A stretch of DNA of 64,000 nucleotides from Alphaproteobacteria bacterium (GCA_017475525.1 JAFVFH010000034.1:4375-68374), one strand, 5' to 3'. Counted from the stretch's first letter, positions 17,244-44,023 are shown. A program made the numbers and translations. Notes: generated by a model from the letters alone, not told the origin.

Positions 17244-17837
17244 TTGAGCGGTATTTGTGCTTTTTTCGGACATCGTGACACACCTTTAACACAAGAACTC
17301 GAAAATAAACTTGAAGAGAGTGTGCTTGATTTAATCTCGACAGGTATTAATGAATTTTGGGTTTGTAACGAGGGGAATTTTGATTGGGTTTCACGCATCG
17401 TCATGACGCGCCTTAAAAAACAATATTCTTCACAAATTTATGTTTGTTTTATGAAGAACCATCCGGCTAACGCCGGAGGTATCTCCGTTCCCTCCAAGCT
17501 GCGCTTGCCAATCCGACTGAAAGTCGGCTTGGAATTCGCTTTCCACTGGCTGACGCCAGTGGTTTGCGCATTTGATGTTATCAGTGCTTATAACCCCGAT
17601 AAATTTTCAACCCTCAAAAGGCAATCTTTAGAGCAAAAATATGAATTGGATTATCCGGCTGAAATTGCCGACAAACCTCCGAAATTTGCCATTTTGGAAC
17701 GTAATAAATATATTGCAGACCGCGCAGATGTCATTATCTGTTTTATTAAAGAGAAAACCGGCGGAGCCTATCGTGCTGTTAAACGCGCACAAAAAAACGG
17801 CAAGAAAATCATCAATCTTGCCGATATACAAATTTAA
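17244..17837 (+). CDS. YpsA-like SLOG/DUF1273 protein carrying an in-frame RPE-like insertion
   Basis: paralog of 25721..26194 (CAFFGHRD...GGAYRAVK.A.KNGKKIINL); 44 aa [10 protein letters not shown]...VCAFDVI inserted between VCF and SAY relative to paralog; TTG start from ORF track. Confidence 0.6.
   Translation: MSGICAFFGHRDTPLTQELENKLEESVLDLISTGINEFWVCNEGNFDWVSRIVMTRLKKQYSSQIYVCFMKNHPANAGGISVPSKLRLPIRLKVGLEFAFHWLTPVVCAFDVISAYNPDKFSTLKRQSLEQKYELDYPAEIADKPPKFAILERNKYIADRADVIICFIKEKTGGAYRAVKRAQKNGKKIINLADIQI
17451..17583. repeat. RPE-like palindromic repeat element, copy A (inserted in frame in CDS)
   Basis: atgaagaaccatccggctaacgccgg...ccaatccgactgaaagtcggcttgg...ccactggctgacgccagtgg...gatgttatca; three internal hairpins; near-identical copies at 33572 and 43891. 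Confidence 0.8.
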
Positions 17838-17852
17838 GCAGGATAAAAAATT

Positions 17853-18890
17853 TTATTTGTAACGAAGTTTGAAAGTATTTCCTGTCGGTTTACTCACAGC
17901 TGTTGCTTCTTCAACGCTATAAATGCGTTTATTTATACGATTTCCTTTTGCAAAATCTTCAAGTGAACGATAAAATTTTGAGCCTACTCTGAATGGTTGA
18001 CCGGTATTTGCTGCGGCTAAAATATCTTTGCATTGCGCTTCATCAGCACAAGCCGCACCATAAACCATTAAATCTGCCGTTGCAAAAAGCTTGCCATCAG
18101 AGGTTTGATAAAGTCCGGTGTCGGGATTTTTTGTATATTCCACGACAGAAACAGCTTCTCCTTGTCCCTTGTTTTCACACACAGAAGCATCAAGGCAATA
18201 TATTTTAACGTTCAACTCTTTTCCGCCGACCTTACCCAAATAAGAAAATGCATTATCCGCAATATCAGGCGTTCCCTCTATAACCAAGCTGTTTGTATAA
18301 GTCTGAAAAAAAGCATTTTCACCGATTGAGCCGACCGATGACGGAATAACTAAATTTATCATAGGCAGATTCTCATCACCGAAATCAGGATGTGCCGCCC
18401 AACCGAAAGCATAATCCCCGATACTTGTCAATGCATTTGACAACCGTACATCTTTAAGACTGTAACAACTGTCAAAAGCGGACGCTCCTAACGATGTCAC
18501 CGTATCTGATATTTCTGCAGTTTTGACAGATGCATAGTCAAAAGCATATTCACCGATATTTTTAACACCCTCGACAGAAACAGAAGTATAATCATACCCC
18601 CACGGCACATTTGTTTCACCAAAACCCCAAGGACCGTTGTATGGCCCGTGAGGGCTGTTGATTGGTTCTGAAGATTCCTCACTGTTGTATGCCAAATCTC
18701 GGTAAAATTCATAATCTCTCATCTCACCTGATCCTGTTATTTGAAGCTGTTCGCCGATTCTGCGAGCCGTGCATAAATCAGATGCCGTTTTTCCGCAATC
18801 CCAGCAATTTTGCTCCCCATCGGCGCAATCGCTGGCGGCTTTTGCATTAAAACTAAGCATCGCACACAAAATCAAAATCCATTTTTTCAT
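17853..18890 (-). CDS. secreted leucine-rich-repeat protein, paralog 2, with conserved C-terminal tag
   Basis: signal peptide MKKWILILCAMLSFNAKA; Cys-rich N-region; LRR units ..LTSIGDYAF..; C-terminus [26 protein letters not shown]. Confidence 0.75.
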   Translation of the reverse strand: MKKWILILCAMLSFNAKAASDCADGEQNCWDCGKTASDLCTARRIGEQLQITGSGEMRDYEFYRDLAYNSEESSEPINSPHGPYNGPWGFGETNVPWGYDYTSVSVEGVKNIGEYAFDYASVKTAEISDTVTSLGASAFDSCYSLKDVRLSNALTSIGDYAFGWAAHPDFGDENLPMINLVIPSSVGSIGENAFFQTYTNSLVIEGTPDIADNAFSYLGKVGGKELNVKIYCLDASVCENKGQGEAVSVVEYTKNPDTGLYQTSDGKLFATADLMVYGAACADEAQCKDILAAANTGQPFRVGSKFYRSLEDFAKGNRINKRIYSVEEATAVSKPTGNTFKLRYK

Positions 18891-19080
18891 AAGTTAAACT
18901 CCTATTCTTTATGCTATCGTAAATTAACAAAAACACCTTGAAAAAAAATCCAAAGTGGGAGCTTCAAGACTGTTTGCGTACAGTTTGGCTTATTCGACAT
19001 TAAAATAATGCTTATTTCACCTACTCCCTTATAAGGAGTTTATACGCAAAAGTGTCTTGAAAACACCATAGCCAACTCGG
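18891..19080 (-). promoter_or_regulatory. conserved structured 5' leader (copy 3 of 10)
   Basis: mRNA-sense UAGCCGAGUUGGCUA palindrome (compensatory vs UAACCAAAAUGGUUA), GUGUUUUCAAGACAC hairpin, AACUCC-UUAUAA-GGGAGU, AAUAAGC, CGAAUAA, CUGU..ACAG, cactttgg-atttttttt-tcaaggtg + U-run. Confidence 0.5.
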
Positions 19081-19122
19081 CTACATTTTTAAGTATGCGC
19101 TATTTTTTTGATTTTGTAAAGC

Positions 19123-19159
19123 AAAAAAATCAGGTTCTCTTTTTAATAAAGAAAACCTG
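19123..19159 (-). terminator. intrinsic terminator of rsfS
   Basis: caggttctct...agaaaacctg stem then U-run in minus sense. Confidence 0.5.
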
Positions 19160-19180
19160 AAATGACCAATAAAAACTCTT

Positions 19181-42435: not shown

Positions 42436-42996
42436 ATGACACCAGTTTTGACTTTTTTCAAAAAAAGAGCCTGCTCTCTTATTTTAGGGGGGGCAGCTCT
42501 TTTTGTTTTTGCCCCGACTCTCGTATCGGCACAAGTTTTCGGCGCACCGTCCGAAACGCCCGCAACGCCTTCAAGCATTGCACAAAAAGTTCAAGCTCAG
42601 GGCGGTATGAATAATGTGCAAATAAAGCCGGTGTTGCCTGCCTCATCAGCTTATGAGCCACAAGATAAAGATGATGAATATATCATTATTTATATGCGCA
42701 ATTTTAATATCAACAAAACGCTTTCAGGTTTTACCAATTGCTCTATGCGTTTTTTTGTGAAATCGGGCTTGTCTACGCGTATTTCTAACTTAAGTTTTCG
42801 CCTTAAATGGCCGAATATGGAAACGCCTTTGAGTTTTGATAATATTGAGCCGAATGCCACACTTTATCAGGATTACGCCCTGCTCGGCAACGGCTGTTAC
42901 CAAATGGATAAAGCACCAAACGTGATTGTTAATCGTTGCCGCGTAAAAGATATGTCGCAACAAACTTGCACCTCTAAAATCCATTGGGCACAATAA
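42436..42996 (+). CDS. secreted hypothetical protein (paralog of preceding gene)
   Basis: signal peptide; shared pattern I..F.I...L.....C....N.T...L...I.F.W with 41607 gene. Confidence 0.45.
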   Translation: MTPVLTFFKKRACSLILGGAALFVFAPTLVSAQVFGAPSETPATPSSIAQKVQAQGGMNNVQIKPVLPASSAYEPQDKDDEYIIIYMRNFNINKTLSGFTNCSMRFFVKSGLSTRISNLSFRLKWPNMETPLSFDNIEPNATLYQDYALLGNGCYQMDKAPNVIVNRCRVKDMSQQTCTSKIHWAQ

Positions 42997-43020
42997 AAAA
43001 TGTTCAAGTGAATAGAAAAA

Positions 43021-43050
43021 GAAACCTTAGAAATAAGGTTTCTTTTTTTC
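43021..43050 (+). terminator. intrinsic terminator
   Basis: gaaacctta-gaaa-taaggtttc + T8. Confidence 0.65.
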
Positions 43051-43094
43051 TTGCAAATCATTCTAAATCATATTATCATTTTTTTTGTAGCTTG

Positions 43095-43264
43095 AAATAA
43101 GTTATGGTGTTTCAAAAGCATCTTAATGGTATCACTCCTTATCAAGGGGAGTAGATGAGATAAGGGTAACAGCCACGAATAAGTCTATCTGTACCATTAC
43201 AGCTTTTGAGCTCCCCGTTTTGATTTTTCAAAGCGGTTTTTTTAGTAACTTTTAACGGAGAATA
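43095..43264 (+). promoter_or_regulatory. conserved structured 5' leader (copy 7 of 10)
   Basis: cactcc-ttatcaa-ggggagtag (43133-43154), GATAAGG, CGAATAAG, ctgta-ccat-tacag, ccccgtttt-gattttt-caaagcgg + T7 (43213-43243). Confidence 0.5.
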
Positions 43265-43894
43265 ATGATGAATAAAGAAAATGGTCGTTCTATGGTCGAA
43301 ATGCTCGGCGTGTTGGCAATTATCGGGGTATTGAGTGCAGGTGCTTTGGCAGGCTATTTGAAAGCAATGACGCAACACAAACTCAATAAAAATGCTCAGG
43401 AGATTGGTTATTTGCTCAGCGTTGCCATTTATAATAATGATAAATTAAAAAATGCAAGTTCAAATATGTATGCAGAATTGAATGCTCTCGGTGCATATAC
43501 TTGGCCGACAGAACTTAAAGGAAATCCGCAAGAAGGTTATTATATACTTGATACATTGCAAAATGAAATTGGTTTTGAACATTTTGCTGATGGTGGAACA
43601 GCAATTCGCATTCATATCCCTATGTCAGAGTTTGCCGTTAAGGTTTGTGCAAATTATATCAATGTCTTCAAAAGTTTTGCCGACGATTTAGATATGATCT
43701 ATGTTTCAAACTTTAATTTCACAGAAGGAATTAGGTCGCACATACGTTTTGCAGGAAAGGGTTGCACAACCGGCAAATGCTTAAAAGACATCACAAATGC
43801 TGACATCGTGCCGCTTTGCACGACACATTGCGTAAATTCGGAGTTTTGCGGCCTTTACGCCATTTGGGATTATCCTACAACAACAGTACAATGA
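43265..43894 (+). CDS. type-IV-pilin-like protein, paralog 3
   Basis: MMNKENG|RSMVEMLGVLAIIGVLSAGALAGY; C-terminal Cys cluster CTTGKCLKDITNADIVPLCTTHCVNSEFC; stop codon lies inside RPE-like copy C. Confidence 0.7.
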   Translation: MMNKENGRSMVEMLGVLAIIGVLSAGALAGYLKAMTQHKLNKNAQEIGYLLSVAIYNNDKLKNASSNMYAELNALGAYTWPTELKGNPQEGYYILDTLQNEIGFEHFADGGTAIRIHIPMSEFAVKVCANYINVFKSFADDLDMIYVSNFNFTEGIRSHIRFAGKGCTTGKCLKDITNADIVPLCTTHCVNSEFCGLYAIWDYPTTTVQ

Positions 43895-44023
43895 AGAACC
43901 ATCCGGCTAACGCCGGAGGTATCTCCGTTCCCTCCAAGCTGCGCTTGCCAATCCGACTGAAAGTCGGCTTGGAATTCGCTTTCCACTGGCTGACGCCAGT
44001 GGTTTGCGCATTTGATGTTATCA
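43891..44023. repeat. RPE-like palindromic repeat element, copy C (overlaps pilin-3 stop codon)
   Basis: near-identical to copies A and B. Confidence 0.8.

What the first reader, a model, noticed from the sequence alone, without database searches (positions are those of the whole stretch)
17451..44023. RPE-like 133-bp multi-hairpin element in three near-identical copies, two inserted in frame into coding sequence
Copies lie at 17451-17583, 33572-33704 and 43891-44023. They are more than 98% identical. The element contains three internal palindromes: ccggc-taac-gccgg, ccaatccgac-tgaaa-gtcggcttgg and ccactgg-ctgacg-ccagtgg.

Copy A adds 44 aa ([10 protein letters not shown]...VCAFDVI) exactly between VCF and SAY of the YpsA-like protein. 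The uninterrupted paralog at 25721 reads LVM-AYGS at the corresponding point.

Copy B starts 1 nt after the RND-pump stop codon and 9 nt into the OMF ORF. On the other strand it adds 46 aa ([12 protein letters not shown]...GWFFIV) in front of the OMF lipobox without breaking the frame.

Copy C supplies the stop codon of pilin-like gene 3.

In-frame insertion of a palindromic selfish element into functional genes is the hallmark of Rickettsia palindromic elements. Finding an analogous element here suggests the same phenomenon in this lineage.
Basis: seen in the sequence. Interest (0 to 1): 0.72.

Follow-up and report, generated by a model that had tools for sequence, protein, structure and literature searches.

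The report
Small mobile repeat inserted in genes
A 129-base hairpin-rich selfish DNA element has spread through the genomes of uncultured rumen Alphaproteobacteria. Because its length is a multiple of three and half of its reading frames are open, it sometimes sits inside working genes, adding 43 amino acids, much like the palindromic elements of Rickettsia.

Summary
Three copies (100%, 100% and 99.2% identical) lie at the stated coordinates, each with three hairpins.

The element is a family. I found 43 copies in 40 sequences from rumen alphaproteobacterial MAGs and metagenomes, plus a fourth copy just outside the window.

- **Copy A** is a true insertion. All 24 homologues of the YpsA-like protein lack the 43 residues.
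- **Copy B** is a true insertion. A syntenic orthologous locus (87-88% nt identity) has an empty site, and the difference is exactly 129 nt. The outer-membrane factor goes from 466 aa to 509 aa, with the insert inside its signal peptide.
- **Copy C** supplies the TGA stop codon of a pilin-like gene.

Elsewhere the element is in frame in YbeY, TauE, PrmC and three more signal peptides. Most copies, however, are intergenic or at gene ends.

The anatomy is not that of a classical MITE. There are no terminal inverted repeats and no target duplication. The two subterminal hairpins are direct copies on one strand. Insertion is 3' of a flanking (T)TGAT that is not part of the element, and orientation is biased relative to GC skew. 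These are IS200/IS605 (PATE-like) hallmarks. No transposase was found, so that mechanism is inferred.

Membership in the RPE families is untested.

The parts
17451..17583 (+). Copy A. The net insert is 17451-17579 (129 nt). The retained target ATCA is 17580-17583. It lies inside the YpsA-like gene and adds 43 aa ([10 protein letters not shown]...VCAFDV) in element frame +1.
17459..17479 (+). Hairpin 1 of copy A (CC-A-TCCGGC / TAAC / GCCGGA-GG). On the - strand this is the proposed right-end subterminal hairpin, 8 nt from the element end.
17508..17532 (+). Central hairpin 2 of copy A (CCAATCCGAC / TGAAA / GTCGGCTTGG). Its sequence is unrelated to the two subterminal hairpins.
17543..17562 (+). 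Hairpin 3 of copy A (CCACTGGC / TGAC / GCCAGTGG). Its apex is 12/14 identical to hairpin 1 in the same orientation. On the - strand this is the proposed left-end subterminal hairpin, 17 nt from the TGAT cleavage point.
17572..17583 (+). Terminal mini-palindrome TTGAT-GTT-ATCA. The internal TTGAT (ATCAA on the - strand) is complementary to the flanking target pentanucleotide.
17244..17837 (+). Interrupted YpsA/SLOG-like gene (197 aa with the insert). The first ATG/GTG/TTG of the ORF is the TTG at 17244. All 24 homologues are insert-free.
25721..26194 (+). Uninterrupted paralogue (PF06908 YpsA, E=1e-8). It reads ILVMAYG at the insertion point.
33572..33704 (+). Copy B. The net insert is 33572-33700. 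The retained target ATCA is 33701-33704 (TGAT on the gene strand). It is read on the - strand in element frame -3 and adds ITSNAQ...ALAGWFF between the n-region (MRKM) and h-region ([10 protein letters not shown]|C) of the OMF signal peptide.
32185..33714 (-). Outer-membrane factor gene (PF02321). The start ATG is at 33714-33712, preceded by GGAG, and overlaps the RND stop codon. It is 509 aa, against 466 aa in the empty-site orthologue P0055.
33707..36832 (-). RND transporter gene. Its stop codon (33709-33707) lies 2 nt upstream of copy B on the gene strand.
43891..44023 (+). Copy C. Element bases 2-4 (TGA, 43892-43894) terminate the pilin-like gene. It is followed by A, so the - strand flank is TTGAT.
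43265..43894 (+). Pilin-like gene 3 (209 aa). Its stop codon lies in copy C. Its C-terminal tail is not shorter than those of the two paralogues at 38236-38874 and 56508-57299.

Best explanation
The repeat is a non-autonomous mobile element of 129 nt (133 nt counting the retained target ATCA). It has been active recently in a clade of uncultured rumen Alphaproteobacteria.

Shown:
- It is interspersed at unrelated loci.
- It is absent from an orthologous site.
- It adds exactly 129 nt, with no terminal inverted repeats and no target-site duplication.
- On its - strand it always lies immediately 3' of TGAT, and of TTGAT in about 90% of copies. That sequence belongs to the host.

Inferred: it moves by the single-strand 'peel and paste' route of IS200/IS605 elements, mobilised in trans by a Y1 (HUH) TnpA. 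That makes it a PATE-like element. The - strand would be the active strand, laid out as 5'-TTGAT | 17 nt - hairpin ... hairpin - 8 nt | -3'.

Because 129 = 3 x 43 and three of the six frames are stop-free, about half of intragenic insertions only add a 43-residue peptide. Those in tolerant places survive. Such places include a surface excursion of the YpsA-like protein and the n/h junction of signal peptides. At gene ends the element often supplies the stop codon.
For: Mobility and family:
- 43 copies in 40 sources from at least 3 GTDB species-representative MAGs plus JGI rumen metagenomes. Many lie at contig ends.
- A fourth copy lies on the same contig, just outside the window.
- Type-I copies are 99-100% identical across genomes whose orthologous genes are only 81-88% identical.

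True insertions:
- The 43-aa insert is absent from 24 homologues.
- Empty orthologous site L040: AAGATTAT|TGTTTTC against filled AAGATGAT[129 nt]TGTTTTC. The OMF is 466 aa against 509 aa.
- Other in-frame cases are PrmC, YbeY, TauE, S41 peptidase and secreted proteins.

IS200/IS605-like hallmarks:
- Conservation stops sharply at both ends with no TIR or TSD. The left-end A/G polymorphism is lineage-linked, so that base is part of the element.
- The base after ATCA is A in 30/33 non-redundant copies, giving a - strand TTGAT. This is the ISDra2 target, and ISDra2 inserts 3' of it (PMC2806898).
- The two subterminal hairpins share 12/14 apical bases, with asymmetric loops in the same orientation.
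- The 17-nt and 8-nt spacings resemble the 19 and 10 nt of IS608 (PMC3201880).
- The proposed active strand lies on the G-rich strand in 29/42 copies (p=0.02), and in 20/27 with a significant local skew (p=0.019). All 4 copies on the window's contig share one orientation. [quoted passage not shown]
- Gene-free PATEs mobilised in trans are known (PMC10055086).
Against: - No tnpA or tnpB-like ORF was found in 234 kb of held sequence, and whole MAGs could not be searched.
- The 5'-of-foot 'guide' position varies between subfamilies while the target stays TGAT. This does not fit a simple IS608 guide rule.
- The AT at both junctions of type-I copies is also compatible with a 2-bp duplication.
- The GC-skew bias is modest and confounded with gene orientation.
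- Only one clean empty site was obtained.
Confidence: 0.6

Rival explanations
1. A classical MITE moved by a DDE transposase, with a 2-bp target duplication (AT) and strong target preference.
For: In type-I copies AT flanks a 127-nt core on both sides. The empty site is equally compatible with an AT duplication.
Against: - There are no terminal inverted repeats.
- One third of copies read GT at the left and AT at the right. That difference follows subfamily lineage, so the base is part of the element and is not duplicated.
- TTG is conserved on only one side of the element.
- The subterminal hairpins are direct, not inverted.
- There is a strand bias relative to GC skew.
Confidence: 0.12
2. 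A multicopy functional RNA or DNA module, such as a terminator, mRNA stabiliser or sRNA, kept by selection rather than a selfish element.
For: - The predicted structure is strong.
- 8 of 43 copies start 0-19 nt from an upstream stop codon.
- Hairpin 1 on the - strand matches a terminator-like pattern.
- Copies are nearly identical across species.
Against: - There is no Rfam family. The best hits have E=0.78 and 1.3, far below the gathering scores.
- Copies occur in both orientations relative to transcription and inside ORFs.
- Presence/absence differs at an orthologous site.
- Subfamilies differ by uncompensated indels, and covariation is almost nil.
- A terminator at codon 4 of the OMF gene, or inside prmC, would be harmful.
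Confidence: 0.12
3. A REP/BIME-like element processed by a RAYT (a domesticated Y1 transposase), rather than an IS200/IS605 derivative.
For: It involves the same enzyme superfamily and the same reliance on hairpins and a nearby tetranucleotide (PMC8266576 and PMC3333891, listed). No autonomous IS was found.
Against: - The unit is 129 nt with two different end spacings and a third hairpin. It is not a 20-40 nt palindrome pair in inverted orientation.
- Insertion is precise and next to a host TGAT.
- Copies are not clustered in the way REPs are around a RAYT gene.
Confidence: 0.1
4. The shared peptide is a conserved protein module or domain, not an insertion.
For: The same 43-aa strings recur in many predicted proteins.
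Against: - Three different reading frames of the same DNA are used.
- All homologues of the host proteins lack it.
- Most copies are intergenic.
- The AlphaFold2 model gives pLDDT below 50 for the insert.
Confidence: 0.01

Closest known systems
Rickettsia palindromic elements (RPE-1 to RPE-10)
   Same: Both are interspersed palindromic repeats of 100-150 bp in an alphaproteobacterium. Both are found in intergenic and in coding DNA. Coding copies are in frame and add a peptide to otherwise intact proteins (PMC1779305; PMC10969869).
   Different: - The host is a free-living or gut rumen lineage, not Rickettsia.
- No sequence relationship has been shown.
- A much smaller share of copies is intragenic: about 10% here, against nearly half for some RPE families.
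- Clear end anatomy and a target (TGAT) can be read here. I know of no defined transposition mechanism for RPEs; this rests on my own knowledge.
PATEs: gene-free derivatives of IS200/IS605 elements (e.g. ISDra2, IS608, ISGst)
   Same: - No TIR and no TSD.
- Subterminal hairpins on one strand.
- Insertion 3' of a conserved host tetra- or pentanucleotide. TTGAT is exactly the ISDra2 target.
- Asymmetric end spacings.
- Strand bias.
- Mobilisation in trans.
   Different: - No cognate TnpA has been identified.
- The guide/cleavage-site pairing rule has not been verified.
- To my knowledge (my own knowledge, not tested), in-frame coding insertions have not been highlighted for PATEs.
Intragenic MITEs (Correia/NEMIS, ERIC, BOX, QMITE1)
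   Same: They are small non-autonomous repeats that can create in-frame fusions, or donate start or stop codons and terminators (PMC10969869).
   Different: As MITEs they have terminal inverted repeats and target duplications (PMC10969869). This element has neither.
REP/BIME with RAYT
   Same: They are hairpin repeats handled by a Y1 HUH enzyme and are abundant in intergenic DNA.
   Different: REPs are much shorter and occur as inverted pairs. They are essentially extragenic and are linked to a single-copy RAYT gene.

Membership tests
Rickettsia palindromic elements | Interspersed repeat of 100-150 bp with internal palindromes | tested here: met
   129/133 nt with three hairpins; 43 copies
Rickettsia palindromic elements | Copies inserted in frame in protein-coding genes that stay intact | tested here: met
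   YpsA-like, OMF, PrmC, YbeY, TauE and signal peptides
Rickettsia palindromic elements | Sequence or HMM similarity to an RPE family, in a Rickettsia or Rickettsiales host | not testable with these tools
   No RPE models were available. The host is annotated only as a rumen Alphaproteobacteria MAG. No Rfam, plasmid or phage match.
IS200/IS605-derived PATE | No terminal inverted repeats | tested here: met
   The ends ATGAAGAACC... and ...GATGTT are not inverted copies of each other
IS200/IS605-derived PATE | No target-site duplication; precise addition of the element | tested here: met
   The empty and filled sites differ by exactly 129 nt. The left-end A/G is lineage-linked, so it is not a duplication. 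A residual 2-nt AT ambiguity is noted.
IS200/IS605-derived PATE | Conserved host tetra- or pentanucleotide immediately 5' of the left end, not part of the element | tested here: met
   TGAT in 34/35 copies and TTGAT in 30/33. It is retained at the site by the empty-site comparison. ATCA is present at the site in orthologue P0002.
IS200/IS605-derived PATE | Similar subterminal imperfect hairpins at both ends on the same strand, at unequal distances from the cleavage sites | tested here: met
   12/14 identical apices with loops GTCA and GTTA in the same orientation. Distances are 17 and 8 nt, against 19 and 10 nt in IS608.
IS200/IS605-derived PATE | Active strand preferentially on the lagging-strand template | tested here: inconclusive
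   29/42 copies (p=0.02) and 20/27 (p=0.019), using local GC skew as a proxy. This is confounded with gene orientation.
IS200/IS605-derived PATE | A Y1 TnpA in the same genomes whose element carries the same ends | not testable with these tools
   None found in the 234 kb held.
Classical MITE | Terminal inverted repeats and a target-site duplication | tested here: not met
REP/BIME | Palindromes of 20-40 nt, extragenic, associated with a RAYT | tested here: not met
   The composite unit is 129 nt, intragenic copies exist, and no RAYT was seen

The most novel reading that the evidence does not exclude
The element is a fully gene-free IS200/IS605 derivative whose whole 129 nt is also an RNA scaffold, a TnpB omega-RNA-like guide whose guide sequence is the flank 3' of the right end. 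It would then both hitch-hike on a TnpA and recruit a TnpB in trans, with TAM = TTGAT, to re-home after excision. Its precise, reversible in-frame insertion into signal peptides and enzymes would act as an on/off or modulating switch. More broadly, RPE-type 'coding palindromes' in Alphaproteobacteria would in general be PATEs, which would answer how RPEs move.
Probability: 0.1. Interest if true: 0.8.

Novelty: new member of a known kind. Interest (0 to 1): 0.5.

Why it matters
It shows that the 'selfish DNA inside proteins' phenomenon, known mainly from Rickettsia, also occurs in abundant uncultured gut and rumen Alphaproteobacteria.

Here the element is young enough that its ends, its target (TGAT) and an empty site can be read directly. 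That makes a concrete mechanism testable: Y1-transposase single-strand transposition that adds exactly 43 codons.

It is also a practical warning for MAG annotation. Contigs break at this repeat, and gene callers produce spurious small ORFs from it as well as lengthened real proteins.

Tried and rejected
- **Rfam.** The gathering-score search and a permissive search gave only chance-level hits (BSnc120 E=0.78, psRNA14 E=1.3).
- **BLAST and pattern scans.** BLAST against plasmids and phages found nothing relevant. Viral contig scans with either hairpin gave 0 hits.
- **Transposase search.** Motif screens for Y1 TnpA (HUH plus Y) and for TnpB-like zinc-ribbon ORFs found none in the 234 kb held. 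The only zinc-ribbon hit looks like ClpX from its sequence.
- **More empty sites.** L037 against the window is not orthologous on the left side. L007 against L026 shows two independent insertions 39 nt apart in opposite orientation, but the left flanks are unrelated. L012 and L022 are the same insertion.
- **Chimeric protein query.** A chimeric query meant to fetch insert-free homologues of seven host proteins was swamped by PrmC homologues. It yielded only the OMF orthologues.
- **Exact-protein look-ups.** NusG and the 577-aa tail-like protein are not on record.
- **Selection for ORF compatibility.** Rejected as unproven. Three open frames occur in 13% of shuffles.
- **Covariation support for the hairpins.** The copies are too similar. 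There is one compensatory pair and one T-A / C.A / C-G series.
- **Other readings.** I considered integron attC sites and DGR template/variable repeats and rejected them on anatomy alone, without a dedicated test. The element has three separate hairpins, about 40 dispersed copies, and differences between copies that are not limited to adenines.
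Full report
**1. Observation**

A search with the 133-nt sequence and up to 3 mismatches finds exactly three matches in the window. 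They are at 17451-17583, 33572-33704 (one mismatch) and 43891-44023, all on the + strand. None is expected by chance. Alignment with flanks shows that similarity stops abruptly at both ends.

The element contains three hairpins, at element positions 9-29, 58-82 and 93-112. It folds far better than shuffled sequence. As RNA, z is -4.7 on the + strand and -6.4 on the - strand. As single-stranded DNA of the - strand, z is -6.7. There is no Rfam match at gathering score and only chance-level hits below it.

**2. Gene context in the window**

*Copy A.* It lies inside ORF 17244-17837, which reads ...IYVCF[[10 protein letters not shown]...VCAFDV]ISAYNP.... Database homologues are 149-166 aa and come from Alphaproteobacteria metagenome bins. 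Several carry PF06908 (YpsA/SLOG). They read IYVCY-ISAYNP with nothing in between. In an alignment of 25 sequences, the 43-residue block is unique to the window protein.

An AlphaFold2 model built on that alignment keeps the host fold at pLDDT above 90. It models residues 73-110 as an unstructured excursion (pLDDT 36-43) that leaves the end of strand 66-69.

*Copy B.* It lies on the opposite strand to an RND-OMF operon. The OMF start (ATG 33714-33712, preceded by GGAG) overlaps the RND stop codon. After MRK the frame runs through the element as [14 protein letters not shown]...PPALAGWFF and then into [10 protein letters not shown]|CTVGPDF, the lipobox.

*Copy C.* It supplies the TGA (43892-43894) of a pilin-like gene. 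Compared with the two paralogues in the window, that gene's C-terminal tail is not truncated.

**3. An empty site**

The closest OMF homologue, P0055 (84% identity over the compared N-terminal segment), is 466 aa and starts MRKIIVFCLMFMASC. Its locus L040 is syntenic with the window (RND, OMF, OmpA-like, ValRS) at 86-88% nucleotide identity.

At the junction, L040 reads AAGATTAT TGTTTTC. The window's gene strand reads AAGATGAT[AACATC...GGTTCTTCAT]TGTTTTC. The difference is exactly 129 nt, or 43 codons (509 aa against 466 aa), plus one substitution.

If the full 133 nt were the insert, a 4-nt indel would be needed as well. So the terminal ATCA (TGAT on the - strand) belongs to the host site.

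The same arithmetic holds for copy A, which adds 43 aa net. One distant orthologue has TAT ATC AGC, and therefore ATCA, at exactly that point.

**4. The family**

A genome-collection scan with the central hairpin found 11 loci in three species-representative rumen MAGs: RUG11221, UBA3773 and RGIG10106. A metagenome scan with hairpin 3 found 28 more. BLAST over all held sequence gives 43 copies.

Proteins P0035 and P0037 tie the window to an ENA scaffold of 73 kb and to an NCBI MAG with locus tags IJ870_. A fourth copy lies on that scaffold just beyond the window, in the same orientation. Short-read contigs often end inside the element.

The commonest subfamily is 99-100% identical between genomes. 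The orthologous genes of those genomes are only 81-88% identical. This indicates recent activity, horizontal spread, or both.

Subfamilies of 134 and 135 nt exist. All in-frame cases belong to the 133-nt (129 net) type.

**5. Where copies sit**

- Two of the 43 copies are clearly internal to ORFs: copy A and a PrmC methyltransferase in L015.
- Two or three are in signal peptides or N-termini: copy B and an S41 peptidase in L030. For AtpD, TadA and another gene, the real start is probably downstream of the element.
- Eight have an upstream gene's stop codon within the first 0-19 nt of the element.
- The rest are intergenic.

I also ran one protein search with the three stop-free translations concatenated. 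It recovered in-frame insertions in YbeY (P0039), TauE (P0041) and two secreted proteins (P0043, P0044). In the secreted proteins the element sits after MKK(V)L. The search also returned many short, probably spurious ORFs that start in the element.

Three of the six frames are open. That occurs in 13% of dinucleotide shuffles, so it is not evidence of adaptation.

**6. Anatomy and mechanism**

There are no terminal inverted repeats and no duplicated flank.

The first base is A or G, and the choice follows subfamily lineage. It is therefore part of the element and is not duplicated target.

On the other side, ATCA is present in 34/35 aligned copies. The next base is A in 30/33 non-redundant copies, after which the sequence is random.

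Read on the - strand, each copy is 5'-(T)TGAT | AACATCAAATGCGCAAA - CCACTGGC GTCA GCCAGTGG ... CCTCCGGC GTTA GCCGGATGG - TTCTTCAY | -3'.

The two subterminal hairpins share 12 of 14 apical bases, and their asymmetric loops point the same way. They are therefore direct copies, not inverted ones.

This is the layout of IS200/IS605 ends. IS608 is cleaved 3' of a host TTAC that lies 19 nt 5' of the left hairpin. At the right end it is cleaved 10 nt 3' of the right hairpin, within the element. There is no gain or loss of DNA (PMC3201880). ISDra2 inserts 3' of the pentanucleotide TTGAT (PMC2806898).

An internal ATCAA, complementary to TTGAT, lies 3 nt inside the end. It may play the guide role. This is inference, and the bases immediately 5' of the hairpin foot vary between subfamilies without any change of target.

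Family members insert with the active strand on the lagging-strand template (PMC5027513). Using local GC skew as a proxy, the proposed active strand is on the G-rich strand in 29 of 42 copies (p=0.02). Among the 27 non-redundant copies with a significant local skew, it is so in 20 (p=0.019). All four copies on the window's contig agree.

Gene-free PATEs mobilised in trans are documented (PMC10055086). No TnpA or TnpB was found in the 234 kb available, so the enzyme remains inferred.

**7. Comparison and verdict**

Functionally this is the RPE phenomenon: interspersed palindromic repeats of 100-150 bp found in both intergenic and coding DNA, in frame in the coding copies (PMC1779305; PMC10969869). 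Homology to RPE families could not be tested, and the host is a different lineage.

Structurally it is not a classical MITE. It fits a PATE.

It is best filed as a new family of a known kind of element. I put confidence that it is a mobile non-autonomous repeat with genuine in-frame insertions at about 0.95. I put confidence in the IS200/IS605-type mechanism at about 0.6.

Noticed in passing
window 44047-44284: Three direct repeats of 62 nt lie just downstream of copy C, between the pilin-like gene and nusG. Two are 100% identical and 105 nt apart; the third is 63% identical. There are also two inverted repeats at 44223-44333. The repeat is not found elsewhere in the window or in the fetched loci. 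A spurious 143-aa ORF (43875-44306, -) runs through the repeats and copy C, and is annotated as a hypothetical protein in the NCBI MAG (P0037).
   Followed up: partly
L043 4099-4231 (about 2 kb beyond the window's right end on the same ENA scaffold): A fourth copy of the element, 99-100% identical and in the same orientation as the three window copies. It is intergenic, within a phage-like structural gene cluster (Collar and BppU_N hits, with repeated 185-aa proteins).
   Followed up: partly
window 807-2246, 17853-18890, 47233-48498, 59315-60280 (all - strand): Four paralogous secreted proteins. PF13306 (LRR_5) hits are on record for 17853-18890 and 59315-60280. The other two are grouped with them by sequence resemblance. 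807-2246 and 47233-48498 also carry long Pro-Glu (PEPEPE) linkers. All four end in a conserved C-terminal motif KRIYT/SVEEA..(L/V)SK.TGNTF(K/R)LRYK, which suggests a shared sorting or anchoring signal.
   Followed up: no
window 38236-38874 (+), 43265-43894 (+), 56508-57299 (-): Three paralogous pilin-like proteins share the N-terminal motif GRSMVEMLGVLA(I/V)IGVLS and Cys-rich C-termini. None hits a Pfam family at E<=0.001; this was tested only for 43265-43894.
   Followed up: partly
L007 6491-6623 and L026 3381-3515: At one orthologous locus (80% identical on one flank), two related genomes carry the element 39 nt apart and in opposite orientations. The L007 sequence keeps an unoccupied ATCAAAATC at the place where L026 has its copy. 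These look like independent insertions into a local hot spot.
   Followed up: partly
window 60600-64000 and beyond: A phage-like cluster of tail-fibre or baseplate-like ORFs occupies the right end of the window and continues off it.
   Followed up: partly
window 11693-16581 and 32185-38874: There are two separate RND efflux operons, one at 11693-16581 and one within 32185-38874. Only the second carries the element. The ORF at 11693-12307, at the start of the first operon, looks like a TetR-type regulator by its sequence; this was not tested.
   Followed up: no
L042 and several L0xx loci: Short-read contigs (Logan, JGI, MAGs) frequently terminate inside the element. The repeat therefore fragments assemblies of these genomes, and copy numbers in MAGs are underestimates.
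   Followed up: partly
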